This document shows, piece after piece, positions 8,559-35,029 of a DNA stretch of 36,958 nt; positions within the stretch are counted from its first letter, which is position 1, and each line of letters opens with the position of its first letter. Position numbers and translations under genes: made by a program. Origin of the DNA: a virus (Duplodnaviria; Heunggongvirae; Uroviricota; Caudoviricetes). The notes under the pieces were generated by a model, which did no database searches, had not been told where the DNA came from, and was given only the letters and a program-made list of their open reading frames with translations. The stretch spans positions 1 through 36,958 of the IMG/VR virus record IMGVR_UViG_2897346870_000003. One strand, given 5' to 3'.

Positions 8559-8575
8559 TTTTGTGGAGAAGGTTG

Positions 8576-8926
8576 ATGCGTGATATGTATGAAGTATTGG
8601 ACCGCTGGGGTGCATGGGCTGCAGCAGATAACAGTGGTGTGGACTGGCAGCCTGTTGCTGCAGGGTTTAAAGGTTTACTACCTCATGGAAAGAAAACACG
8701 CCAACAATGCGATGATGATGAAGGCATCATGATTGACAGCTGTGTTGCGCGATTGCGGAAATATAAGCCAGAAGAATATGAACTGATCATTGCTCACTTT
8801 GTTATCGGTATTTCACTCCGTTCAATAGCAAAGAAACGGAAATGCTCTGACGGGTCAATCAGAAAACAACTTCAAGCAGCAATAGGAGTGATTGAAGGTA
8901 TTTTGTTGATTATTAAGCCCCTGTAG
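8576..8926 (+). CDS. Q: Late-gene antitermination protein Q
   Basis: MRDMYEVLDRWGAWAA... with conserved YELIIAHFVIGISLRSIAKKRKCSDGSIRKQL segment; GGAGAAGG Shine-Dalgarno. Confidence 0.88.
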   Translation: MRDMYEVLDRWGAWAAADNSGVDWQPVAAGFKGLLPHGKKTRQQCDDDEGIMIDSCVARLRKYKPEEYELIIAHFVIGISLRSIAKKRKCSDGSIRKQLQAAIGVIEGILLIIKPL

Positions 8927-8929
8927 GGC

Positions 8930-9514
8930 TTAATAATTCATATGAATTCTGTTTCCGAGATAATATAATCCAAAGAAAGTTGATACTAAGAGTTGCCAAA
9001 CGAGGAAAGTAAATACAACAGTATAAACCATTAAAACAATACTGTTTTGATAGACATTGATTAATGGTGAAAATATAGCATTAAGTATTATTATAACAAT
9101 GCTTAATGCTGTTAAAAAAGAGAATAGCATGCAAAGAAATAATCGTCTGGTCAGAACCTCCTCTGAATTTACTACTTTTCCATTTTCTTTTGTTACTTTT
9201 ATTTCAATAGAGGCATTTCTTTCATTGCTAATCAATGGTAAATCAATCTCAGCTCTATTGAAAGTTGCTATGGCGGCCAGAGCGGCAATATAAAACCCTG
9301 GTAGGTTAGAGATAAATGAAACGATTGATTTAATGAAACCATTGTCATCAAATAAATCTTTGACAGGGATTTTTAATAGAATGAAAAGTACTGCTGTGAT
9401 AGAAGTAAGTAGAATTGGTGCTACCCAATCATATGCAGCTTTGCCGCTAATACCTTTAATAAAAAGATATCCAAACGGCTTGCCTAGATGAGAGAAAACT
9501 GAAAGTATTGGCAT
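8930..9514 (-). CDS. Hypothetical 194-aa integral membrane protein with four predicted TM helices (candidate membrane effector)
   Basis: Four hydrophobic helices (WVAPILLTSITAVLFILL; IVSFISNLPGFYIAALAAIATF; LFLCMLFSFLTALSIVIIILNAIF; IVLMVYTVVFTFLVWQLLVSTFFGLYYL); GAGG Shine-Dalgarno; 7-nt gap to the upstream gene. Confidence 0.75.
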   Translation of the reverse strand: MPILSVFSHLGKPFGYLFIKGISGKAAYDWVAPILLTSITAVLFILLKIPVKDLFDDNGFIKSIVSFISNLPGFYIAALAAIATFNRAEIDLPLISNERNASIEIKVTKENGKVVNSEEVLTRRLFLCMLFSFLTALSIVIIILNAIFSPLINVYQNSIVLMVYTVVFTFLVWQLLVSTFFGLYYLGNRIHMNY

Positions 9515-9521
9515 AATAACC

Positions 9522-10544
9522 TCACATCAAATCTATCATTTTCACAACAAACTCTAGTTCAATTTTAACATATGAATCCTTCAGGCGCGAATTAAAGTTA
9601 TCGATAATGCTTTTCTTAATAAATGTTTTTTCTAAATTATTAAGATTGATGTTTGAGGTTTTGAAATCAACCTGCCTTGGTTTATTTGTTTCAGGATCTT
9701 GGAATTTAACCTTTAATTTATCATAACCACCATTCATTTTTTTATTGAAATGAGATGCTACATTTTTAATCCATCCAATAACATTGTCACCATGATTTGG
9801 AAGTAATTTTAATGTACTTTCAGTCGGAATGTAAGGTGAATTAACATCAGGAGCATTAATTGTTCCGAATTGATCCTTGACTAATATGACATCTGATAAT
9901 CCTTTTTGGCTTATTTTATTAAAAAGCTCCTTGTCTAACATTCCTGTAAATTCAAATATTGGTTTGTATCGTATTTTTACTTCTTTTTTTGATGTTGCAG
10001 AAATAACGTTAGTTGGATGTTTTGCGGTAAATAAGTCTTCATTGTCTTTCGCCACTTCAAAGAGAATTTTGTCTAAAAAACTATTTAACCGGGCCGTAGA
10101 TACACCTGGGGTAGATGTACAAATCATATCATAGGTTCTTTTATTTCCATTTAATGATATGACAACATAGGTAGAAACTTCATAGCCTTCACCTTGTTCA
10201 TATTTTGGTTGGATTTCAACGCGTTCATTAGTATTTATATTTTTTACAACGGTAGTACTTCCATTTTTATCAACACTATTAATAAGAAGGACAATATGCG
10301 TGGGTGAGTTATCTGGAAGTAAAGGATAAAGTTGTACATCTTGGAGAGTAACTACAATATTCCCAGAATCATATGAATGAACGAGTCCCTTTTGTTTAAC
10401 AATCAATGGGGCAAGCATGTACATTTCCGGAACAGGACATATACACTGGGCTTTTACCTCTTGTGTTGCCTTGGTTCTAAACTTTGTGTCAATGGTCAGA
10501 CTATGATGAGTAACGAGTCTTTCGCTAGCATTTAATTTTGCCAT
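9522..10544 (-). CDS. Hypothetical 340-aa soluble protein; first gene of an AT-rich antisense cargo operon (candidate sensor of a defence-like pair)
   Basis: Long ORF antisense to the late operon, visibly AT-rich with Lys/Asn-rich product; no family recognised by eye; no nucleotidyltransferase GS...DxD motif seen. Confidence 0.75.
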   Translation of the reverse strand: MAKLNASERLVTHHSLTIDTKFRTKATQEVKAQCICPVPEMYMLAPLIVKQKGLVHSYDSGNIVVTLQDVQLYPLLPDNSPTHIVLLINSVDKNGSTTVVKNINTNERVEIQPKYEQGEGYEVSTYVVISLNGNKRTYDMICTSTPGVSTARLNSFLDKILFEVAKDNEDLFTAKHPTNVISATSKKEVKIRYKPIFEFTGMLDKELFNKISQKGLSDVILVKDQFGTINAPDVNSPYIPTESTLKLLPNHGDNVIGWIKNVASHFNKKMNGGYDKLKVKFQDPETNKPRQVDFKTSNINLNNLEKTFIKKSIIDNFNSRLKDSYVKIELEFVVKMIDLM

Positions 10545-10829: not shown

Positions 10830-11156
10830 ATGCCTCATAACCCAAATACCTGGCTGGAGTTGTTCCAGAGCTGGTGGCGTGGAGACACACCGCTGGGCGC
10901 AGTGATTATGTCGATCGTTATGGCTGGCTTGCGCATTGCCTATTTTGGCGGTGGTGGTGGCTGGAAACGAAAAACGCTCGAGATTTTGCTCTGTGGTGCT
11001 CTGACGCTGACTTTTGCATCCGCTCTTGAGTATGTCGGATGGCCTAAATCTCTTTCTGTTGCCATTGGTGGCGGCGTTGGGCTGATCGGGGTCGATGCTA
11101 TTCGTGGGGCTGCAATGAGAGTAATCGGTAATAAGTTTGGTGGCTCTAAGGAGTAA
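10830..11156 (+). CDS. Holin (three predicted TM segments)
   Basis: 108 aa, hydrophobic segments, charged C-terminus, directly upstream of the endolysin. Confidence 0.75.
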   Translation: MPHNPNTWLELFQSWWRGDTPLGAVIMSIVMAGLRIAYFGGGGGWKRKTLEILLCGALTLTFASALEYVGWPKSLSVAIGGGVGLIGVDAIRGAAMRVIGNKFGGSKE

Positions 11157-12330: not shown

Positions 12331-12726
12331 TTAGTCCTGCATGAATCTCTCTCTTTCTATTTCATAACCGTCGCTTTCTTCTCGGCAGTTTTGACATAAG
12401 AGATCTCCATAGTAACCTTGTAAGTTATAAGCTTCTTCTAGCTCATAGCCAGAGATAACCTTAGAGCAACCGTTATGGTGCCCGCCTGGATTTCTAACAC
12501 CACCACATGGGTGAGAAAGGAAAGGTTGCAATACCCTCTTTTGCGGTGCAGAAAGACTATCAAATCCTTTGGTTACAGCTAACTTAGCGATTCCACTAAC
12601 TTTGCCATCTTCATGATAAAATGCGTCACAATTAAGCATTGTATTGAGTAATGATTCTACTTCGTCAGACACTGGAAATACCTCTCTATAAACAAAAGTA
12701 ATAGCTATCACACAAAGCTTAAGCAC
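12331..12726 (-). CDS. Hypothetical Cys/His-rich small protein (up to 131 aa; start uncertain, ATG at 12639 possible)
   Basis: ORF in an AT-rich antisense island; C-terminal HPCGG...GGHHNGC...CQNC motif suggests a zinc-binding fold; no clear Shine-Dalgarno. Confidence 0.5.
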   Translation of the reverse strand: MLKLCVIAITFVYREVFPVSDEVESLLNTMLNCDAFYHEDGKVSGIAKLAVTKGFDSLSAPQKRVLQPFLSHPCGGVRNPGGHHNGCSKVISGYELEEAYNLQGYYGDLLCQNCREESDGYEIERERFMQD

Positions 12727-12814
12727 ATAAACTAAAATAAATCAAAATGTTAATGATAATCGTATAGTAAAAAGAAAAGGCTGAAGTAGCCGAGAGGTAG
12801 CAATAGCAGGTTAA

Positions 12815-12839
12815 GGCAGGCACTTAGTAAGTGCCTGCC
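12815..12839. repeat. Perfect 25-bp palindrome GGCAGGCACTTA-G-TAAGTGCCTGCC just 3' of the minus-strand 69-aa gene
   Basis: Read directly. Confidence 0.55.
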
Positions 12840-12844
12840 ACTGG

Positions 12845-13054
12845 TTAGTAACAAGATGGTGTATTGTTGAATCTGTAAGAGAGGCGAACTATTTCAGAAA
12901 CCCCTTTTCGGTTTAACAATCGCCTTATATTCTCTGGATTTTTGTAAATAAAAGGATTCCTTAGATCCTCGAACACTCCTCCTGCAATGCAAATCAAATA
13001 TTCCAGATCTTCTTGTGTTGGTAAGGTTGAAAGTTTGTTATTTGCATTATTCAT
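12845..13054 (-). CDS. Hypothetical small protein (69 aa)
   Basis: Start chosen at MNNANNK because AGGAG lies 8 nt upstream; AT-rich, antisense to flanking phage genes. Confidence 0.55.
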   Translation of the reverse strand: MNNANNKLSTLPTQEDLEYLICIAGGVFEDLRNPFIYKNPENIRRLLNRKGVSEIVRLSYRFNNTPSCY

Positions 13055-13175
13055 TTTACAGCTCCTAATTATTGCCGTTATTGGCGTGGTGCATGATAGG
13101 AAGTTTGTGATTTTTAACGGTAGCTGGGGCAAGCTTTTTGTGAATCCTATGCACATCATCAAATCGAGTTTTTCA

Positions 13176-13526
13176 ATGCCACAACGAACCCCAAAAGCCT
13201 GCCGTGTTCGCGGCTGCCACCATACCACTACTGACCCGTCAGGCTACTGCGAAAGCCACAAAAGCGAAGGCTGGAAGCAATACAAGCCAGGCCAGTCCCG
13301 ACACCAGCGCGGTTATGGTTCGAAATGGGATGTTATCCGTGAACGTGTGCTCAAGCGTGACAAAGGCCTGTGTCAGTTGTGCCTGCGTGCTGGTGTGGTG
13401 CGTGAGGCGAAGACCGTTGACCACATCATCCCTAAATCGCATGGCGGCACTGATGTCGACAGTAATCTGCAGAGTTTGTGCTGGCCGTGTCATAAGGCGA
13501 AGACGGCCCGTGAACGGCTAAAGTGA
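13176..13526 (+). CDS. HNH endonuclease (terminase-associated)
   Basis: CxxC...HH...CxxCH motif (ACRVRGCHH...VDHIIPKSHGGTDVDSNLQSLCWPCH), immediately upstream of the terminase genes. Confidence 0.85.
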   Translation: MPQRTPKACRVRGCHHTTTDPSGYCESHKSEGWKQYKPGQSRHQRGYGSKWDVIRERVLKRDKGLCQLCLRAGVVREAKTVDHIIPKSHGGTDVDSNLQSLCWPCHKAKTARERLK

Positions 13527-23464: not shown

Positions 23465-23613
23465 CGGCTGAATACCTCACTGATCGCTTCTTTGACTGCG
23501 CCAGCTACTGGCGCATTAATCCTTTCGAATTGCTGAATATGCCGATCAGTGAAATTCCCTTACTGGTCAGTCAGGCAAACAGGATAGAGCAGGAGAAACG
23601 CACACATGGCTGA
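23446..23613 (+). CDS. -1 frameshift extension of the tail assembly chaperone (long fusion form); slippery heptamer T_TTT_TTC at 23446-23452
   Basis: The -1 frame ORF overlaps the chaperone 3' end and runs to the tape measure start; the heptamer was read in the zero frame. Confidence 0.6.
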   Translation, partial: FFPPGLTAEYLTDRFFDCASYWRINPFELLNMPISEIPLLVSQANRIEQEKRTHG

Positions 23614-25438
23614 ATTTGAGCTTAAGGCGTTGATCACCGGTGTCGACAGGCTTTCTCCCGCGCTGTCGAAAATGCAAAAGAAAATCCGGGGATTTAAACG
23701 CCAGGCGGAAGAAGCGTCACAGGGTGGGCTGGCGCTTGGTGGCGGACTGGCAGCGGGTCTGACGCTTTCCCTGAAATCTTATGCCGATCAGGAAAACGCC
23801 GCCACCGGGCTGAAAGTCGCCATGATGGATGCGAACGGCGAGGTTGGAAAGAGCTTTCAGGACATCAATAAACTGGCTATTGGCCTGGGTAACCAGCTAC
23901 CCGGTACAACGGCTGATTTCCAGAACATGATGCAGATGCTGGTGCGTCAGGGGATCCCGGCAGAAAACATTCTTGGTGGTGTGGGTAAAGCGACAGCTTA
24001 TCTTGCGGTACAACTGAAAAAAACACCGGAAGCGGCTGCTGAGTTTGCTGCAAAGATGCAGGATGCTACCGGAACTGCGTCAGAAGACATGATGGGGCTG
24101 TTCGACACTATCCAGAAGGCGTTTTATCTGGGCGTTGACGATACCAACATGTTGTCCTTCTTCACTAAAACCAGTTCTGTTCTGAAGATGGTGAATAAGG
24201 ACGGACTTCAGGCTGCACAGAGCCTTGCCCCTATCAGCGTCATGATGGATCAGATGGGGATGAACGGGGAGTCGGCAGGTAATGCCCTGCGAAAAGTTAT
24301 CCAGTCCGGATTAAGCGTTAAGAAAATCAGGGACGTCAATAAAGTCATGGCCCGCCAGAAACTCGGAGTGCAGCTCGATTTTACTGACGGCAAAGGGAGT
24401 TTTGGCGGTCTTGATAACATGTTTAAGCAACTGGCAAAGCTGCGAAAACTGACCGACGTTAAGCGAACAGGTGTACTTAAGGCAATATTTGGTGATGATG
24501 CCGAAACCCTTCAGGTGGTCAATGCTCTGATCGATAAAGGAAAGGATGGTTACGATCAGATCCAGCAGAAGATGAATAAACAGGCCAGCCTGAATAAACG
24601 TGTTCAGGCACAGCTTGGTACGCTGTCCAACCTGTGGGAGGCAATGACGGGGACCGCAACTAACGGTCTTGCAGCTATTGGCGGCGCATTTTCTGGTGAC
24701 GCTAAAAATATCACGCAATGGCTGGGGGAGTTGGGGGAAAAATTCACGAAGTTTGCGGATGAAAATCCCCGGGTTATTCGCGGCGTCGTCGGGCTTGCTG
24801 CCGGTCTTGCGATTCTGAAACTGGGATTGATGGGCGTGGGCAGTGCCATCAGTATTGTCAGCAGGATCATGTCGATGACGCCGATTGGCATGATTGCGAC
24901 GGCGATTGCTCTGGCTGCGGGATTAATTATCACTAACTGGGATGTTGTCGGACCTTATTTCAAGAAGCTCTGGGAAACCATTGGTCCTTATTTTGAGGCT
25001 GGCCGGGAACTTCTGAAGAAGGTTTTTGCCTGGTCGCCGCTGGGGATGGTGATCAATAACTGGGGACCGGTTGTTAAGTGGTTTCAGGATATGTGGGATA
25101 AGCTGAAGCCGATTATTGAATGGTTTACCGGCAGTTCCGGTGACACGGTCGATACCATTAACTCGGCGCAGTGGGGCGCGGGTGCTTATGATGCTTATGG
25201 GACGGGAATACCGGCACGGGGATACACTCCTTATCCGGCGGTGGATCCGGCTCAGGCAAACAACGCCTCCGATGCCACAGGCTCGAATCCCTTCATGATT
25301 AATAAAGCTACCGCGCCAAAAGTTGATGGTGAGATCAAGGTATCATTTATAAATATGCCACCAGGTATGCGGGTTACGGAAACACGCTCCAGTGGCATTG
25401 ATATAAATCACGATGTTGGCTATACCCGATTTTGGTAG
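23606..25438 (+). CDS. Tail tape measure protein
   Basis: 610 aa, Ala/Gly-rich with hydrophobic stretch; position after the chaperone. Confidence 0.92.
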   Translation: MAEFELKALITGVDRLSPALSKMQKKIRGFKRQAEEASQGGLALGGGLAAGLTLSLKSYADQENAATGLKVAMMDANGEVGKSFQDINKLAIGLGNQLPGTTADFQNMMQMLVRQGIPAENILGGVGKATAYLAVQLKKTPEAAAEFAAKMQDATGTASEDMMGLFDTIQKAFYLGVDDTNMLSFFTKTSSVLKMVNKDGLQAAQSLAPISVMMDQMGMNGESAGNALRKVIQSGLSVKKIRDVNKVMARQKLGVQLDFTDGKGSFGGLDNMFKQLAKLRKLTDVKRTGVLKAIFGDDAETLQVVNALIDKGKDGYDQIQQKMNKQASLNKRVQAQLGTLSNLWEAMTGTATNGLAAIGGAFSGDAKNITQWLGELGEKFTKFADENPRVIRGVVGLAAGLAILKLGLMGVGSAISIVSRIMSMTPIGMIATAIALAAGLIITNWDVVGPYFKKLWETIGPYFEAGRELLKKVFAWSPLGMVINNWGPVVKWFQDMWDKLKPIIEWFTGSSGDTVDTINSAQWGAGAYDAYGTGIPARGYTPYPAVDPAQANNASDATGSNPFMINKATAPKVDGEIKVSFINMPPGMRVTETRSSGIDINHDVGYTRFW

Positions 25439-25466
25439 CCAGGATTCCCCTCACATGTATTGCTGG

Positions 25467-25494
25467 TTGTAAGTCATAAATAGAGTGATAGAAT
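25467..25494 (+). promoter_or_regulatory. Candidate sigma70 promoter of the tail-module moron (TTGTAA-16-TAGAAT)
   Basis: Hexamers read directly about 35 nt upstream of the moron ATG. Confidence 0.35.
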
Positions 25495-25529
25495 TAATGC
25501 ACATTTAGAAAAATGTTAATAGGCGAAAA

Positions 25530-26060
25530 ATGAAAGGCTATATCACAGCAAGTGTAATTCTTGGATCAGCGGCTATTTTTTCATCTCTCATAATCTCTGG
25601 CAACATCTCCTTTAAAGATGAACATATTATTCAGTTATCTGGAGGAGCCATAAAACTTGGTGATGTTTATAAAGAAAATAAATTGATAAGTGCAAAGATT
25701 ATTTTTCCAGATAATCAGGGTGAACAGATTCTTGTTGTCGACGGCAATCCTGAAAACTTTAAGGAGGATTTTCAGGAGAAATTAAATAAAGTAATAAAAA
25801 CTTTAAATGCGTCAAAGAAAAAAGATGAAGAGAAAGTTAGCCTGGATAATTTAAGTGTTATTGAAGAGTCTAAACTAGAGCTCGTTTCTGCGGTGCGTTA
25901 CTCTGCTCAGTATGTTCCTATGTTTACTCTGACGCTGGACAAAAAAGAAATTACCATGCCTAAAAATACGGTAATATTTCCATTTGCCAGCGATGAAACA
26001 GCTAAGTATTTAAATGAACAACAGCAAAAGTATAAAGATTCGTTGTTTCTGACTCGCTAA
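25530..26060 (+). CDS. Hypothetical moron protein with N-terminal signal-anchor/TM helix (176 aa)
   Basis: AT-rich ORF between tape measure and baseplate genes; ITASVILGSAAIFSSLIIS hydrophobic N-terminus; Lys/Glu-rich body. Confidence 0.7.
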   Translation: MKGYITASVILGSAAIFSSLIISGNISFKDEHIIQLSGGAIKLGDVYKENKLISAKIIFPDNQGEQILVVDGNPENFKEDFQEKLNKVIKTLNASKKKDEEKVSLDNLSVIEESKLELVSAVRYSAQYVPMFTLTLDKKEITMPKNTVIFPFASDETAKYLNEQQQKYKDSLFLTR

Positions 26061-26078
26061 TTAATAAAATTCATTACA

Positions 26079-26108
26079 AGGCCACCTTCTAATAGGTGGC
26101 TTTTTAAT
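26079..26108 (+). terminator. Rho-independent terminator after the moron gene
   Basis: GCCACC-loop-GGTGGC stem followed by TTTTT. Confidence 0.7.
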
Positions 26109-26121
26109 TTTCGGAGTATAT

Positions 26122-27450
26122 ATGACGTGGAAAGACAGGCTTCAGGACGCGTCATTTCGCGGCGTGCCGTTTAAGGTTGAAGAAGAAAGTGCGGGAACCG
26201 GTCGCCGTGTGGAAACACATGAATACCCGAACCGCGACAAACCCTATACCGAAGACCTGGGGAAAATCACTTTTCGCCCGTCCATCACGGCTTATGTGGT
26301 GGGAGATGACTGCTTTGACCAGCGCGATCGCCTGATTGACGCGCTGAATAAACCCGGTCCCGGCACGCTTGTCCACCCGACATACGGTGAGTTGAAAGTC
26401 TGTGTTGACGGGGAAGTTCGGGTCAGCACATCGAAGAGTGAAGGGCGTATTGTCCGCTTTGACCTGAAGTTTGTCGAAGCGGGAGATCTCTCTTACCCCA
26501 CATCAGGCGTGGCGACGGCGCAGACGCTGATGTCATCCTGTTCTGCACTGGATGACTGCATCAGTGACAGCTTCAGCGGTTTCAGTATCGATGGCGTGGC
26601 GGATTTTGTGCAGAACGACGTTATCGGTAATGCCAGCACAATGCTTGGGTATGTTTCTGATGCGATGAAAGTGGTGGATTCTGCTGTATCGGATGCCGCC
26701 AGGCTGTTGCAGGGGGATATCTCGGTACTTATGCCGCCGCCATCGTCAGGAAAAAATTTCGTTGAGCAGGTGCAGAAAATGTGGCGTACCGGGAAACGCC
26801 TTTATGGTAACGCCAGCGACCTGGTCACCATGATCAAAACGCTTTCTGGTGTCAGCCTCGGCAGCGATTTGCAACCGCGCGGCGTCTGGAAAACGGACAG
26901 TAAAACCACCGCCACAGCGACGCAGCAGCGTAACATGGTTGCCAGCACCCTTCGTACGACTGCAATCAGCGAAGCGGCGTATGCCGTTACCCGATTGCCT
27001 GCGCCAACAACTTCTGCGGTGATGCAGAATGCCGCAGTGGGGCAGTCAACAACACCCGCGCAGAGCTCCGGCTGGCCTGCCGTCACGCATCCGGTGCTGA
27101 ACAATGCACCGGCGGTGAAAAACACGGTTGACCTGCCAACGTGGGAAGAACTGACCGACATTCGCGACACACTGAATATGGCAATTGATAAGGAGTTGTC
27201 CCGTACAACCAGTGATGCGCTGTTTCTGGCGCTGCGCCGGGTGAAAGCAGATCTGAATGCGGATATCAACACGCGCCTTGAACAGTCTGCTCGGATCATT
27301 CAGCGCACGCCGGATGAGGTTTTACCCGCGCTGGTGCTGGCGGCGACCTGGTTTGATAACGCGGCGCGTGACGCGGACATTATCCGGCGTAATGCCATTA
27401 CGCATCCCGGCTTTGTGCCGGTGATCCCTCTGAAGGTGCCAGTGCAATGA
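26122..27450 (+). CDS. DNA circulation protein (Mu gpN-like)
   Basis: 442 aa after the tape measure/moron; N-terminal region typical of Mu N-like proteins. Confidence 0.85.
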   Translation: MTWKDRLQDASFRGVPFKVEEESAGTGRRVETHEYPNRDKPYTEDLGKITFRPSITAYVVGDDCFDQRDRLIDALNKPGPGTLVHPTYGELKVCVDGEVRVSTSKSEGRIVRFDLKFVEAGDLSYPTSGVATAQTLMSSCSALDDCISDSFSGFSIDGVADFVQNDVIGNASTMLGYVSDAMKVVDSAVSDAARLLQGDISVLMPPPSSGKNFVEQVQKMWRTGKRLYGNASDLVTMIKTLSGVSLGSDLQPRGVWKTDSKTTATATQQRNMVASTLRTTAISEAAYAVTRLPAPTTSAVMQNAAVGQSTTPAQSSGWPAVTHPVLNNAPAVKNTVDLPTWEELTDIRDTLNMAIDKELSRTTSDALFLALRRVKADLNADINTRLEQSARIIQRTPDEVLPALVLAATWFDNAARDADIIRRNAITHPGFVPVIPLKVPVQ

Positions 27451-31875: not shown

Positions 31876-32483
31876 TGACCGTAAACGAAATCACTTTAGA
31901 CGAAAATGGATTTGCCACGGAAGCTGGCTTTATTACCGTTTACAACTACAACGGCGAAACGCGGGAGTATATTTCTTCATCACTTGAATTCCTGCCTTTT
32001 GGTGTTGGCGTTCCTGCTCATTCCACAACTGAGGCACCAGGAGAAAGCAAGGCCGGTTTTGCCATCCGCAGGACCGCTGATTTGACTGGCTGGGAGCTTG
32101 CGCCAGACCATCGCGGCGAAACTGTTTACAGCACGACCAATGGCAAACCTGTAACTGTTTCACAGTTGGGCGAATACCCGGAAGGAACCACCGTCAAAGC
32201 GCCTTCTACGCAATACGACAAATGGGATGGCAAAAAATGGGTGACTGATAGCGATGAACAGCATCGCGCCGCAGTAGAAGCGGCAGAAGCACAGCGCCAG
32301 TCGCTGATTGATGCTGCAATGGCTTCCATCAGTCTGATTCAACTGAAATTACAGGCCGGGCGGAAGCTGACGCAGCCAGAAAACACCCGACTTAACGCTG
32401 TGCTGGATTATATTGACGCGGTGACGGCAACAGATACCAGCACAGCGCCGGATGTCATCTGGCCTGAACTGCCGGAGGCGTAG
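31872..32483 (+). CDS. Tail fibre assembly protein (expressed orientation)
   Basis: 203 aa after the fibre gene; conserved C-terminal ...VIWPELPEA. Confidence 0.85.
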
Positions 32484-32892
32484 GCCATTCAATATCTGGC
32501 ACACTGGAGGTATCAACCAGCTCCAGTGCGTCCAGATAATCCAGCCACGAATTATATTGCGCCAGTTCCTCGCCTTTCAGACGACCAATAGCGGCTTTAC
32601 CGGGCCATTGTTTACTGTTCATGTATTCGTTGGCCTGATTAATTAATAGCTGTCTTTTTGACTCAGAAATTTCAATAAGTTCTTCATGCGTGGGTGAAGG
32701 AATATCTGCCCACGCAGGCATTCCGTCTGCACCTGCAATACGTCGCTTACCCTGCGGAGGTGTCGCCATAAACGACTCGGCACGTCGGGTTTCAATATCT
32801 TTTGCATCATCAGGCCATGTGCCGGAATCGCGGTATACGGCCTCATTACCAGCCAGATAAAACGCATTTTTTTTAGCACTGTATTTGTACAT
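32455..32892 (-). CDS. Tail fibre assembly protein (alternative, silent orientation)
   Basis: 145 aa; related C-terminus ...[13 protein letters not shown]; inverted within the segment. Confidence 0.8.
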   Translation of the reverse strand: MYKYSAKKNAFYLAGNEAVYRDSGTWPDDAKDIETRRAESFMATPPQGKRRIAGADGMPAWADIPSPTHEELIEISESKRQLLINQANEYMNSKQWPGKAAIGRLKGEELAQYNSWLDYLDALELVDTSSVPDIEWPTPPAVQAR

Positions 32893-32893
32893 A

Positions 32894-33466
32894 TTATTTC
32901 CCTACCGCAATCCAGAAAAATGAACTCATGCTGGCTACTGGTGCTCCGCCCGCTGTTGGAATCATCAGATTTCGGACGCCGCATCCTAAATTAGTTATCG
33001 TTGGCGCTGAAATTACTGGCGACTGAACTACGTTAGGAAGCGATGCCTGCTGAGGACCAAATCCCACATACATCGGGTATGCAGAGAACGCGACAGGAAA
33101 CGTAATAAAGATCTCTCCAGTTGATGATGGATTGGCTGTCCCCCACTGAATAATCAGACCTGACGGTAATTTTTGCCAGCCATGGCTGGTCAGGCTGGAT
33201 GTGAAGTCATTCATATCCGGAATCTGATTTGCCCCTGAGCCAACATCCCTTTGAGCCGCACTTTTCAGATCAAGATAAGTTCTTAGTTCAGCCTTATCCT
33301 TACCGCTTAAATCTGTCAGTGTCTGGTCTTTTGGTTGCGCATAGTCTTTTGTTGCCAGACGAACTACTGTATTTGTTCTGGCGAATCGCATATACGGGGC
33401 ATTGACGTTACTACTGTCAAACCCTGCAATTTTACATTCATCACCAATTAATGCATCTCCCAAACC
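32894..33466 (-). CDS. Alternative tail-fibre variable C-terminal segment (no native start; expressed only after inversion)
   Basis: Minus-strand ORF whose 5' end crosses the right recombination site; joining the constant part at the crossover gives in-frame ...ENLGLGDALIGDECKIAG... Confidence 0.7.
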   Translation of the reverse strand, partial: GLGDALIGDECKIAGFDSSNVNAPYMRFARTNTVVRLATKDYAQPKDQTLTDLSGKDKAELRTYLDLKSAAQRDVGSGANQIPDMNDFTSSLTSHGWQKLPSGLIIQWGTANPSSTGEIFITFPVAFSAYPMYVGFGPQQASLPNVVQSPVISAPTITNLGCGVRNLMIPTAGGAPVASMSSFFWIAVGK

Positions 33467-33480
33467 AACGTTTATGAAAA
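33455..33480. other. Right inversion crossover site: ATCTCCCAAACC-AA-CGTTTATGAAAA, inverted relative to the left site
   Basis: Core AA is the reverse complement of the left core TT; the 13-bp inverted repeat AAC(C/G)TTGGTTTGGG is shared with the left site. Confidence 0.7.
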
Positions 33481-33534
33481 TGCAGAAATAACGAGCAAAT
33501 GGCATCATTCCTGCTTTTGTCAGGGAGATCTACC

Positions 33535-34089
33535 ATGCTTATTGGCTATGTACGTGTGTCAACAAATGACCAGAACACAGATCTACAACGTAATGCGCTG
33601 AACTGTGCAGGATGCGAGCTGATTTTTGAAGACAAGATAAGCGGTACAAAGTCCGAAAGGCCGGGACTGAAAAAACTGCTCAGGACATTATCGGCAGGTG
33701 ATACGCTGGTGGTCTGGAAACTGGACCGACTGGGGCGCAGTATGCGGCATCTTGTCGTGCTGGTGGAGGAGTTGCGCGAACGAGGCATCAACTTTCGTAG
33801 TCTGACGGATTCAATTGATACCAGTACCCCAATGGGGCGCTTTTTCTTTCATGTGATGGGTGCCCTGGCTGAAATGGAGCGTGAACTGATTGTTGAAAGA
33901 ACAAAAGCTGGACTGGAAGCTGCTCGCGCACAGGGACGAATTGGTGGACGTCGTCCCAAACTTACACCAGAACAATGGGAACAGGCCGGACGATTAATTG
34001 CATCAGGCGTTCCTCGCCAGAAGGTGGCGATTATCTATGATGTTGGTGTGTCAACTTTGTATAAGAGGTTTCCTGCAGGGGATAAATAA
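33535..34089 (+). CDS. pin: Serine DNA invertase (Hin/Gin/Pin family)
   Basis: MLIGYVRVSTNDQNTDLQ... with catalytic Ser, C-terminal HTH; AGGGAGA Shine-Dalgarno. Confidence 0.95.
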   Translation: MLIGYVRVSTNDQNTDLQRNALNCAGCELIFEDKISGTKSERPGLKKLLRTLSAGDTLVVWKLDRLGRSMRHLVVLVEELRERGINFRSLTDSIDTSTPMGRFFFHVMGALAEMERELIVERTKAGLEAARAQGRIGGRRPKLTPEQWEQAGRLIASGVPRQKVAIIYDVGVSTLYKRFPAGDK

Positions 34090-34195: not shown

Positions 34196-35029
34196 ATGCA
34201 TGTTTTTGATAATAATGGAATTGAACTGAAAGCTGAGTGTTCGATAGGTGAAGAGGATGGTGTTTATGGTCTAATCCTTGAGTCGTGGGGGCCGGGTGAC
34301 AGAAACAAAGATTACAATATCGCTCTTGATTATATCATTGAACGGTTGGTTGATTCTGGTGTATACCAAGTCGTAGTATATCTGGCGTCATCATCAGTCA
34401 GAAAACATATGCATTCTTTGGATGAAAGAAAAATCCATCCTGGTGAATATTTTACTTTGATTGGTAATAGCCCCCGCGATATACGCTTGAAGATGTGTGG
34501 TTATCAGGCTTATTTTAGTCGTGCGGGGAGAAAGGAAATTCCTTCCGGCAATAGAACGAAACGAATATTGATAAATGTTCCAAGTATTTATAGTGGCAGT
34601 TTTTGGGCGTCTATAATACGTGGAGAACTATCAGAGCTTTCACAGCCTACAGATGATGAATCGCTTCTGAATATGAGGGTTAGTAAATTAATTAAGAAAA
34701 CGTTGAGTCAACCCGAGGGCTCCAGGAAACCAGTTGAGGTAGAAAGACTACAAAAAGTTTATGTCCGAGACCCGATGGTAAAAGCTTGGATTTTACAGCA
34801 AAGTAAAGGTATATGTGAAAACTGTGGTAAAAATGCTCCGTTTTATTTAAATGATGGAAACCCATATTTGGAAGTGCATCATGTAATTCCCCTGTCTTCA
34901 GGTGGTGCTGATACAACAGATAACTGTGTTGCCCTTTGTCCGAATTGCCATAGAGAATTGCACTATAGTAAAAATGCAAAAGAACTAATCGAGATGCTTT
35001 ACGTTAATATAAACCGATTACAGAAATAA
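34196..35029 (+). CDS. mcrA: McrA-type HNH restriction endonuclease (modified-cytosine restriction)
   Basis: 277 aa; C-terminal HNH motif (CENCG...HHVIPLSSGGADTTDNCVALCPNCH); the pin-mcrA pairing next to the icd fragment matches the recalled e14 arrangement. Confidence 0.85.
   Translation: MHVFDNNGIELKAECSIGEEDGVYGLILESWGPGDRNKDYNIALDYIIERLVDSGVYQVVVYLASSSVRKHMHSLDERKIHPGEYFTLIGNSPRDIRLKMCGYQAYFSRAGRKEIPSGNRTKRILINVPSIYSGSFWASIIRGELSELSQPTDDESLLNMRVSKLIKKTLSQPEGSRKPVEVERLQKVYVRDPMVKAWILQQSKGICENCGKNAPFYLNDGNPYLEVHHVIPLSSGGADTTDNCVALCPNCHRELHYSKNAKELIEMLYVNINRLQK

What the first reader, a model, noticed from the sequence alone, without database searches (positions are those of the whole stretch)
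25467..26108. Self-contained moron (promoter-gene-terminator) inserted in the tail module, encoding a signal-anchored 176-aa protein
Between the tape measure gene and the DNA-circulation gene lies an AT-rich unit with a candidate sigma70 promoter (TTGTAA-16-TAGAAT), a 176-aa ORF with an N-terminal hydrophobic anchor, and a clean rho-independent terminator (26079-26108). The surrounding late genes are translationally coupled, so this is an insertion. Envelope-located moron products in tail regions are often superinfection-exclusion or receptor-masking factors, or lysogenic-conversion proteins.
Basis: partly seen in the sequence, partly recalled or inferred. Interest (0 to 1): 0.5.

Follow-up and report, generated by a model that had tools for sequence, protein, structure and literature searches.

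The report
Envelope-protein moron in prophage tail operon
An SfV/e14-like E. coli prophage carries an optional, AT-rich gene cassette between its tape-measure and baseplate-hub genes; it encodes a membrane-anchored periplasmic protein of an uncharacterised family, probably an envelope-level block to infection by other phages, though its function has not been tested.

Summary
Window 25439-26112 is an AT-rich island (GC 0.34; flanks 0.50-0.55). It contains a sigma-70-like site, a 176-aa ORF (25530-26060) and a strong intrinsic terminator, and lies between the tape-measure gene and the DNA-circularisation/hub gene.

Comparative data support an accessory cassette:
- The flanks occur in 1088 of 5426 complete E. 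coli genomes; the cassette occurs in 178.
- Phages SfV, SfI and SfII have the slot empty.
- At least five unrelated cargos occupy the same slot. Five of the six cargo types carry an export signal.

The ORF is a real gene. dN/dS is 0.03-0.17, the family has 77 representatives of about 175 aa, and the AlphaFold2 model reaches pLDDT 92. The predicted architecture is an N-terminal membrane anchor plus a roughly 150-aa periplasmic alpha/beta domain.

It has no Pfam, NCBIfam, PADLOC or PDB match, and no relative in 50,697 deposited phage genomes. Orthologues sit in the same slot in Leclercia and Edwardsiella. Lelliottia keeps the gene alone beside icd.

Function is inferred, not shown. The best guess is superinfection exclusion at the inner membrane or periplasm, as with HK97 gp15. 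It is a new member of a known kind, of moderate interest.

The parts
25439..26112 (+). Whole AT-rich accessory cassette. It runs from the base after the TMP stop codon to just before the ribosome-binding site (GGAG, 26113-26116) of the DNA-circularisation gene.
   Evidence: GC is 0.337 against 0.50-0.55 in the flanks. In relatives, cargo replacement starts at the TMP stop codon and ends about 10 nt before the hub ATG. The cassette is at least 99% identical in 178 of the 180 matching records, which come from 178 E. coli genomes.
25467..25494 (+). Candidate sigma-70 promoter: TTGTAA, 16-nt spacer, TAGAAT, with a TG extended -10.
   Evidence: Found by the scan at 9 of 12 matches, a frequency no higher than chance. 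A -35/-10-like pair occupies the equivalent position upstream of orthologues in Leclercia, Lelliottia and IMG/VR contigs. Activity has not been tested.
25530..26060 (+). 176-aa ORF (WP_000679479.1-type hypothetical protein; phrog_5485).
   Evidence: dN/dS is 0.03-0.17. The family has 77 representatives at 50% clustering, nearly all 170-180 aa. The AlphaFold2 model has pLDDT 92.
25536..25613 (+). Codons 3-28: an uncharged hydrophobic segment, predicted to be an N-in signal anchor or possibly an uncleaved or cleaved signal peptide.
   Evidence: Best 19-residue Kyte-Doolittle mean is 1.97; the family median is 2.2, with a median uncharged stretch of 23 aa. The N-flank is positive. The window protein has no Cys, and a lipobox pattern occurs in only 1 of 57 family members. 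AlphaFold2 predicts a helix at residues 2-23. UniRef labels one orthologue 'Secreted protein'.
25614..26057 (+). Predicted periplasmic alpha/beta domain of about 150 aa: a beta-hairpin followed by two beta-beta-alpha units. It carries the family motifs N-I-x4-G-x-V-x-L-G-x-V-Y-x-E and Y-x-S-E-x2-P-x-F-x-L.
26078..26108 (+). Rho-independent terminator: stem 26078-26103 and a T-run.
   Evidence: dG -17 kcal/mol, z = -6.8. Analogous hairpins close the slot in the PH, signal-peptide, lipoprotein and SfV-type empty variants.
23606..25438 (+). Left flank: tail tape-measure gene.
   Evidence: PF10145 at 1.1e-26; phrog_28 and phrog_17727.
26122..27450 (+). Right flank: DNA-circularisation / baseplate-hub gene (Mu gp43/N-like).
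   Evidence: PF07157 at 9.2e-34; phrog_184.
8561..8926 (+). Q-type late antiterminator. It provides the context that lets late transcription read through terminators inside the operon.
   Evidence: PF06530 at 8.7e-45, covering profile positions 1-112 of 118.

Best explanation
Shown here: this is a moron, an optional, compositionally foreign cassette of promoter-like site, gene and terminator. It occupies a recurrent cargo slot between the tape-measure and hub genes of SfV/e14-like temperate myoviruses.

Its product is predicted to be a bitopic inner-membrane protein: short positive N-terminus in the cytoplasm, one transmembrane helix, and a periplasmic alpha/beta domain of about 150 aa. It belongs to a small, uncharacterised family under purifying selection.

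Inferred: the gene is transcribed from its own promoter in the lysogen. The terminator stops read-through into the repressed baseplate genes. During lytic growth, Q-modified RNA polymerase ignores that terminator.

Inferred: the periplasmic domain, held at the inner membrane, interferes with incoming phages after adsorption. The most likely mechanism is engagement of the tail-tip, tape-measure or hub proteins, or of a host factor they need, as they cross the periplasm, which blocks formation of the DNA channel. That would be superinfection exclusion, analogous in logic to HK97 gp15.

I put the moron and envelope-protein part above 0.9. I put the exclusion mechanism at about 0.4.
For: Presence and absence at one junction:
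- Flanks are in 1088 of 5426 E. coli genomes and the cassette is in 178.
- SfV, SfI and SfII, and the O157:H7 and UTI89 prophages, are empty.

Other cargos in the same slot:
- bPH_1 protein, 28 genomes and Edwardsiella phage EPP-1.
- tRNA_anti-like OB-fold protein with a transmembrane anchor, 79 genomes.
- 164-aa signal-peptide protein, 85 genomes and phage SKA5.
- 225-aa lipoprotein.
- 162-aa signal-peptide protein.
- Sources.
- Five of the six cargo types carry export signals, which points to an envelope-directed role for the slot.

Cassette anatomy: AT-rich, strong terminator, conserved promoter-like position.

The gene is real and constrained: dN/dS 0.03-0.17, pLDDT 92.

Topology.

Dispensable for the phage but kept by a host: Lelliottia retains only the last 41 TMP codons, the intact gene and its terminator beside icd, with no hub gene. 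That copy shows dN/dS 0.03-0.04 against the same-slot copies L001 (Leclercia prophage) and L090 (an IMG/VR viral contig).

Company it keeps:
- Distant members lie in integrase or resolvase islands, one of them beside an Mrr-type nuclease.
- The window itself also carries McrA and a PDC-M53 candidate defence pair.
- The window encodes a complete Q antiterminator.

Precedent: HK97 gp15 is a moron beside the TMP gene. Its inner-membrane product blocks genome entry in a manner that depends on the tail of the incoming phage (PMC3594210, read; HK97 annotation).
Against: - There is no experimental or transcriptomic evidence for expression in lysogens.
- The promoter match is weak and no more frequent than chance.
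- No homology to any known exclusion or defence protein. PADLOC, Pfam and NCBIfam give nothing. The family profile scores 4 bits or less against HK97 gp15, T4 Sp and T4 Imm.
- The fold has no informative neighbour.
- One cargo of the slot, the bPH_1 protein, is cytoplasmic.
- The gene also lies inside the late transcript, so a role in the lytic cycle is equally compatible with its position.
- Whether the N-terminus is an anchor or a cleaved signal peptide is unresolved.
Confidence: 0.42

Rival explanations
1. It is a lysogenic-conversion envelope factor unrelated to phage exclusion. The periplasmic, membrane-anchored protein would change host envelope physiology, for example stress, serum, bile or colicin tolerance, or colonisation. 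This is how lambda Bor and Lom benefit their lysogens.
For: The moron anatomy and predicted envelope location are the same as for the best explanation. A Lelliottia chromosome retains the gene after the prophage decayed, which argues for a host benefit that need not concern phages. The cassette occurs in E. coli from many hosts and sources. Morons with such roles are documented (PMC3594210).
Against: There is no similarity to any known virulence or fitness factor. The same prophage and the distant islands carry anti-phage cargo, not virulence cargo. The slot lies next to the genes of the injection machinery.
Confidence: 0.25
2. It works for the phage during lytic growth and is expressed mainly from the Q-antiterminated late transcript. 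Possible roles are to stop progeny or sibling phages injecting into cells that are already infected or lysing (as T5 Llp and T4 Imm/Sp do), to counter a membrane-embedded host defence, or to adjust lysis or tail release at the envelope.
For: The gene is co-oriented inside the late operon, downstream of a complete Q gene, so it will be transcribed late whatever the status of its own promoter. That promoter is unproven. Orthologues have stayed in exactly this slot across Escherichia, Leclercia and Edwardsiella. They are about as diverged as the neighbouring TMP and hub genes: 52% identity for the ORF, 36% for TMP and 63% for the hub gene.
Against: SfV, SfI and SfII are viable without it. The Lelliottia copy has survived, under purifying selection, with no phage around it. 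Distant members lie outside phages. A terminator directly downstream is what one expects for a unit expressed from the prophage.
Confidence: 0.2
3. It is a structural or assembly component of the Mu-like tail, for example a chaperone for TMP or hub, or an injection protein.
For: Only its position between the TMP and hub genes.
Against: It is absent from most relatives, including plaque-forming phages. It can be replaced by unrelated genes, one of them on the opposite strand. It has a deviant GC content and an N-terminal membrane anchor. It occurs outside phages.
Confidence: 0.02

Closest known systems
HK97 gp15 moron (Juhala et al. 2000; Cumby et al. 2012, as summarised in PMC3594210)
   Same: Both are small, autonomous, compositionally deviant cassettes inside a Q-dependent tail operon. 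Each lies directly beside the tape-measure gene and is followed by its own terminator (HK97 annotation). Each product has an N-terminal transmembrane segment and is absent from close relatives. gp15 is expressed from the prophage and blocks genome entry in a manner that depends on the tail of the incoming phage.
   Different: There is no sequence relationship; the family profile scores 1 bit. gp15 is 62 aa and essentially only a membrane helix plus a short tail. This protein has a folded periplasmic domain of about 150 aa. The host phage is a siphovirus for gp15 and a contractile Mu-like-tailed phage here. The slot is upstream of the TMP gene in HK97 and downstream of it here. No phenotype is known for this protein.
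T4 Spackle (Sp) and Imm; P22 SieA (envelope-level superinfection exclusion proteins)
   Same: These are phage-encoded proteins of the inner membrane or periplasm that act on the incoming tail tip or on DNA transfer. Sp is a periplasmic protein of about 100 aa with an N-terminal export signal.
   Different: No homology to Sp or Imm (4 bits or less). P22 SieA was not compared. Those proteins belong to virulent phages or to P22-like phages and lie in other genomic contexts. The fold found here has no solved neighbour.
Cargo hotspots of temperate phages and satellites (the P2/P4 hotspots of Rousset et al. 2022, and the moron loci described for Tai systems in PMC11364771)
   Same: A fixed intergenic position between conserved genes holds alternative, unrelated, AT-rich cargos in different members of one phage family.
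   Different: I found no description of this slot, between the TMP and hub genes of SfV/e14-like phages, in the papers I searched. None of its cargos matches a PADLOC defence model. The cargos are single small genes, mostly for envelope proteins, rather than multi-gene defence systems.
Predicted lipoprotein A0A2H4P829 of Pseudomonas phage ventosus (BFVD)
   Same: It is the only significant structural neighbour: Foldseek E = 9.5e-7, TM-score 0.56 normalised to the query and 0.66 to the target. It is also a small phage-encoded protein tethered to the envelope.
   Different: Sequence identity is 16%. It is tethered by a lipid rather than a transmembrane helix. Its function is unknown and its structure is itself only predicted.

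Membership tests
Moron (Hendrix/Juhala definition) | Present in some closely related phages and absent from others at the same map position | tested here: met
   Cassette in 178 genomes and flanks in 1088. SfV, SfI and SfII are empty.
Moron (Hendrix/Juhala definition) | Base composition differs from the surrounding genes | tested here: met
   GC 0.337 against 0.50-0.55.
Moron (Hendrix/Juhala definition) | Own terminator | tested here: met
   dG -17 kcal/mol, z = -6.8. A hairpin also exists in the SfV-type empty slot.
Moron (Hendrix/Juhala definition) | Own promoter | tested here: inconclusive
   A 9-of-12 match with an extended -10, no more frequent than chance. Its position is conserved in orthologues.
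Moron (Hendrix/Juhala definition) | Expressed from the repressed prophage | not testable with these tools
   Needs RNA-seq or 5' RACE on a lysogen.
HK97 gp15-type superinfection exclusion proteins | Sequence homology to gp15 | tested here: not met
   The A2 family profile scores 1.0 bit against HK97 gp15.
HK97 gp15-type superinfection exclusion proteins | Inner-membrane protein with an N-terminal transmembrane segment | tested here: met
   Prediction only: a 26-aa uncharged segment, a positive N-flank and an AlphaFold2 helix at residues 2-23. Cleavage by signal peptidase is not excluded.
HK97 gp15-type superinfection exclusion proteins | Blocks genome entry by superinfecting phage without blocking the receptor | not testable with these tools
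   Needs plating-efficiency, adsorption and DNA-entry assays.
T4 Sp / T4 Imm | Sequence homology | tested here: not met
   Scores of 2.4 bits (Sp) and -2.3 bits (Imm).
Known or candidate anti-phage defence systems (PADLOC-DB v2) | Match to any of the 5027 models | tested here: not met
   No families at E of 10 or less. The same holds at E of 0.1 or less for the three other slot cargos tested (bPH_1, OB-fold, 164-aa signal-peptide protein).
Mu-like tail structural or assembly genes | Conserved at this position in all related tail clusters | tested here: not met
   Absent or replaced in most relatives.
PHROG phrog_5485 (unknown function) | Full-length profile match | tested here: met
   E = 1.3e-107, covering residues 1-176 of 176.

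The most novel reading that the evidence does not exclude
The roughly 175-aa family (transmembrane anchor plus a periplasmic beta-beta-alpha x2 domain) is a new class of envelope-level anti-phage factor. It would recognise tape-measure or hub proteins of contractile-tailed phages as they cross the periplasm. The slot between the TMP and hub genes of SfV/e14-like phages would then be a previously undescribed hotspot dedicated to envelope-acting exclusion cargo. At least six cargo types use it, and five of them are exported.
Probability: 0.3. Interest if true: 0.6.

Novelty: new member of a known kind. Interest (0 to 1): 0.42.

Why it matters
If the function is confirmed, it would add a new protein family, with a fold that has no solved neighbour, to the short list of envelope-level superinfection-exclusion factors. 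It would also give a probe for how Mu-like contractile tails deliver the tape-measure protein, the hub and the DNA across the periplasm.

The slot can also be used without knowing the function. It is a defined position, in about 20% of complete E. coli genomes, where alternative single-gene cargos can be read off. Most are exported, none is characterised, and each could be tested one by one. The Lelliottia remnant is a small example of a moron outliving its phage.

Without experiments, this remains an ordinary moron of unknown function, although it is well documented.

Tried and rejected
- Pfam, NCBIfam and PADLOC scans of the protein gave nothing. A Pfam scan of all 57 family members gave only scattered noise.
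- A PDB sequence-profile search gave nothing below E = 0.64.
- The afdb50 Foldseek library was not available.
- blastn in distant mode and tblastn against 50,697 deposited phage genomes found no match to the cassette or the protein.
- The search for related loci failed on the broad alignment because it has no conserved stretch. With the close alignment, the genome collection gave only one Edwardsiella locus.
- Single distant members found nothing in IMG/VR. Contexts of distant members therefore rest on four short or medium contigs.
- Literature searches for the WP accession and for this slot found nothing specific. The ST64B transcriptome paper does not cover this junction.
- Rfam and tRNA scans of the whole window were negative.
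- I considered a specialised cassette-exchange mechanism at the terminator hairpin and rejected it. The boundaries are explained by homologous recombination in the conserved 3' end of the TMP gene and 5' end of the hub gene.
- I considered a tail structural role and rejected it, as set out under the rival explanations.

Full report
**1. What is in the sequence**

The tape-measure gene (TMP, 23606-25438, PF10145) and the DNA-circularisation/baseplate-hub gene (26122-27450, PF07157, phrog_184) are separated by 683 bp. That spacer has GC 0.337; the neighbouring 500 bp have GC 0.504 on the left and 0.550 on the right.

The spacer contains:
- one ORF, 25530-26060, 176 aa;
- a sigma-70-like site upstream: TTGTAA 25467-25472, a 16-nt spacer, TAGAAT 25489-25494, with a TG extended -10;
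- a hairpin with a T-run downstream, 26078-26108, dG -17 kcal/mol, z = -6.8, with no shuffle out of 200 as stable.

The other tail genes overlap or abut one another. The tool lists no minus-strand ORF of 40 aa or more in the island, and there is no Rfam or tRNA hit.

The weakest element is the promoter. It matches 9 of 12 positions, and sites of that quality are no more frequent in the region than in shuffled sequence (3 found, 3.5 +/- 1.9 expected).

**2. What the element is embedded in**

The window is an SfV/e14-like temperate phage genome.
- It has lambdoid early genes, including an S24 repressor, RusA, KilA-N and DUF968.
- It has a complete Q antiterminator at 8561-8926 (PF06530, 8.7e-45), followed by a holin gene.
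- It has an HK97-type head and a Mu-like contractile tail.
- A 99.8% identical copy in E. coli AMSHJX01 lies at the icd site, next to e14-named genes such as ymfR and ymfQ.
- SfV, SfI and SfII are the closest deposited phages across this junction.

Q-dependent late transcription explains why a terminator inside the late operon is tolerated. The HK97 record likewise annotates several terminators inside its tail operon.

**3. The comparative test**

- A 1-kb query spanning the junction finds the flanks in 1088 of 5426 complete E. coli genomes. Only 174 of them match across at least 80% of the query.
- The cassette alone is found in 178 genomes. It is at least 99% identical in 178 of the 180 matching records.

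In the other genomes the slot takes several forms.

- Empty, with a 60-bp AT-rich spacer that is essentially just a terminator hairpin. This is seen in an O157:H7 prophage and in phage SfII, whose record annotates the terminator; UTI89, SfV and SfI show a slot of the same short length.
- Truly empty, 24 bp with no hairpin.
- Occupied by an unrelated cargo.

| Cargo | Export signal | Where found |
|---|---|---|
| 125-aa bPH_1 protein | none | 28 genomes; also Edwardsiella phage EPP-1, about 89% identical by eye from the sequences |
| 148-aa tRNA_anti-like OB-fold protein, on the opposite strand | N-terminal transmembrane segment | 79 genomes |
| 164-aa protein | signal peptide | 85 genomes; also phage SKA5 |
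| 225-aa protein | lipobox | one E. coli relative examined |
| 162-aa protein | signal peptide | one E. coli relative examined |

Four of the five spacers holding another cargo have GC 0.32-0.37; the lipoprotein slot has GC 0.41. Replacement begins at the TMP stop codon and ends about 10 nt before the hub start codon. Ordinary recombination in the conserved gene ends therefore suffices to shuffle the cargos.

The condition 'integral tail gene conserved in all relatives' is not met. The slot is a cargo hotspot, and ORF176 is its most common occupant in E. coli.

Five of the six cargo types carry an export signal. If about 30% of genes encode exported proteins, the chance of five or more out of six is about 0.01. 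This is my own rough estimate, not a tool result.

**4. The gene is real and constrained**

- Orthologues 40-57% identical occupy the same slot in two Leclercia species and in Edwardsiella anguillarum.
- Between the window and Leclercia, ORF176 is 52% identical. TMP is 36%, the hub gene 63%, and sheath, tube and gpP 75-86%. The gene is therefore a long-standing resident of the slot, not a single recent event.
- dN/dS is 0.03-0.17 wherever dS can be measured. The most reliable pair gives dS 1.15 and dN/dS 0.078.
- An exhaustive profile search finds 77 cluster representatives, almost all 170-180 aa. They share the N-terminal hydrophobic segment and two motifs, N-I-x4-G-x-V-x-L-G-x-V-Y-x-E and Y-x-S-E-x2-P-x-F-x-L.
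- All sources name the protein 'hypothetical'. PHROGs lists it as phrog_5485, function unknown.

**5. A copy that outlived its phage, and distant members**

In Lelliottia amnigena, the locus downstream of icd holds only three things: the last 41 codons of a TMP gene, an intact orthologue (78% identical to the Leclercia protein) and its terminator. No hub gene follows. The copy shows dN/dS 0.03-0.04 against the same-slot copies L001 (a Leclercia prophage) and L090 (an IMG/VR viral contig). This is what one expects of a gene that is expressed on its own and is useful to the cell. A single case could still be chance.

Distant members (about 23% identity, from marine Pseudomonas-like genomes) lie in integrase or serine-recombinase islands. 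One is next to an Mrr-type nuclease and a secreted 180-aa protein. Another is next to a small two-transmembrane protein. The family is therefore mobile-element cargo in general and has no tie to tails.

**6. The protein**

- With the 57-sequence alignment, AlphaFold2 gives pLDDT 92 and pTM 0.77. The model has a helix at residues 2-23, a short beta-hairpin at 33-42, then two beta-beta-alpha units (strands 46-58 and 65-72 with helix 74-93; strands 114-126 and 132-143 with helix 149-171).
- Across the family, the uncharged N-terminal stretch has a median of 23 aa. The N-flank is positive (1.1 K/R against 0.14 D/E) and the C-flank is slightly acidic. Only 1 of 57 members has a lipobox pattern, and most members have no cysteine.
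- This fits an N-in, C-out signal anchor. A cleaved signal peptide cannot be excluded: Ser23 is invariant among close homologues, and UniRef labels one orthologue 'Secreted protein'. Either way, the folded domain is predicted to be periplasmic.
- The fold has no neighbour among solved structures. Its only significant match among predicted viral structures is a 'lipoprotein' of Pseudomonas phage ventosus, another phage protein tethered to the envelope, with unknown function.
- There is no match in Pfam, NCBIfam or PADLOC, none in 50,697 phage genomes, and no relationship to HK97 gp15, T4 Sp or T4 Imm.

**7. How it most likely works**

Shown:
- it is an optional cassette in a hotspot;
- it has a strong terminator;
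- a Q antiterminator is present;
- the product is predicted to be exported or membrane-anchored;
- the gene is under purifying selection;
- it has been retained outside a phage.

Inferred:
- it is transcribed from its own promoter in the lysogen, and the terminator insulates the repressed baseplate genes;
- Q-modified polymerase reads through that terminator during lytic growth;
- the periplasmic domain interferes with the tail-tip, TMP or hub proteins of an incoming phage, or with a host factor they need, and so blocks DNA entry.

The closest precedent is HK97 gp15. It is a moron adjacent to the TMP gene whose inner-membrane product excludes phages in a way that depends on the tail of the incoming phage (PMC3594210).

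Supporting context:
- the slot's cargos are enriched for exported proteins;
- the prophage also carries McrA (34196-35029) and a PDC-M53 candidate defence pair (8930-10544);
- a distant family member is associated with an Mrr-type nuclease.

I give the exclusion mechanism about 0.4. The rivals are:
- a non-phage lysogenic-conversion role at the envelope, about 0.25;
- a lytic-cycle role for the phage itself, including counter-defence or preventing re-injection into infected cells, about 0.2;
- a structural tail role, about 0.02, effectively excluded by the empty slots.

**8. Novelty and verdict**

As a kind of element, this is a textbook moron in a classic location. The new points are modest but concrete:
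- an uncharacterised family of about 175 aa, with a confident predicted fold that has no solved neighbour;
- a defined hotspot between the TMP and hub genes of SfV/e14-like phages, with at least six cargo types, five of them exported, that I did not find described in the literature I searched;
- a remnant in Lelliottia showing the gene persisting without its phage.

I rate it a new member of a known kind, with interest about 0.4. The function can be tested cheaply with expression in trans and a phage panel.

Noticed in passing
window 8930-10544 (minus strand): A two-gene AT-rich cassette (GC about 0.29-0.34) lies between the Q antiterminator (8561-8926) and the holin gene (10830-11156). Its products match the PADLOC candidate defence system PDC-M53: subunit B at 1.8e-54 and subunit A at 1.9e-32. 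A related prophage (L096) has a different Q gene (PF03589 type) and different genes at this position.
   Followed up: partly
window 34196-35029 (+): A McrA-like type IV methyl-directed restriction endonuclease (PADLOC mREase_IV at 1.4e-199, HNH domain), as in E. coli e14. It lies in an AT-rich region at the right end of the window.
   Followed up: partly
window 32455-34089: A Pin-like serine invertase (33499-34089; Resolvase plus HTH_7) lies beside opposed minus-strand ORFs (32455-32892, 32894-33508). Annotated tail-fibre assembly genes occupy the corresponding position in the near-identical prophage L096. This looks like an invertible host-range segment, as in e14 and Mu.
   Followed up: no
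window 12331-13228 (minus strand): A further AT-rich stretch (GC about 0.38-0.39) between the lysis genes and the terminase genes holds two small minus-strand ORFs of 130 and 126 aa. Neither has a Pfam or PADLOC match. It may be another accessory cassette.
   Followed up: no
L005 7800-8570 (Lelliottia amnigena, beside icd): A prophage remnant of about 760 bp holds only the last 41 codons of a TMP gene, an intact ORF176 orthologue and its terminator. No hub gene follows.
   Followed up: yes
L103 (Edwardsiella phage EPP-1) and L006 (E. coli IrN): The bPH_1 cargo of the slot is about 89% identical in protein sequence between an Edwardsiella phage and E. coli prophages. The flanking DNA is only about 72% identical, which suggests the cassette has been exchanged across genera.
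   Followed up: partly
NZ_CP081716.1 (37,667-bp 'plasmid' of E. coli CX04) and NZ_CP146678.1 (64 kb): Four cassette hits lie on records labelled as plasmids. One is a 37.7-kb record, phage-genome-sized, carrying a 97.8% variant of the cassette. It could be an excised or episomal form of the phage. A 104-aa truncated ORF variant (P0018) is recorded on a contig of the same length.
   Followed up: no
L091 2173-13541 (marine Pseudomonas-like genome): A distant family member sits in an island of about 11 kb bounded by two FKBP gene fragments. The island carries a large serine recombinase, a small resolvase, an Mrr-type nuclease and an adjacent secreted 180-aa protein of unknown family.
   Followed up: partly
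L006 1628-1663 (PH-cargo variant of the slot): A near-consensus promoter (TTGGCA, 15-nt spacer, TATAAT) overlaps the TMP stop codon upstream of the bPH_1 cargo. The scan missed it because it requires a 16-18 nt spacer. I read it directly from the sequences printed.
   Followed up: no
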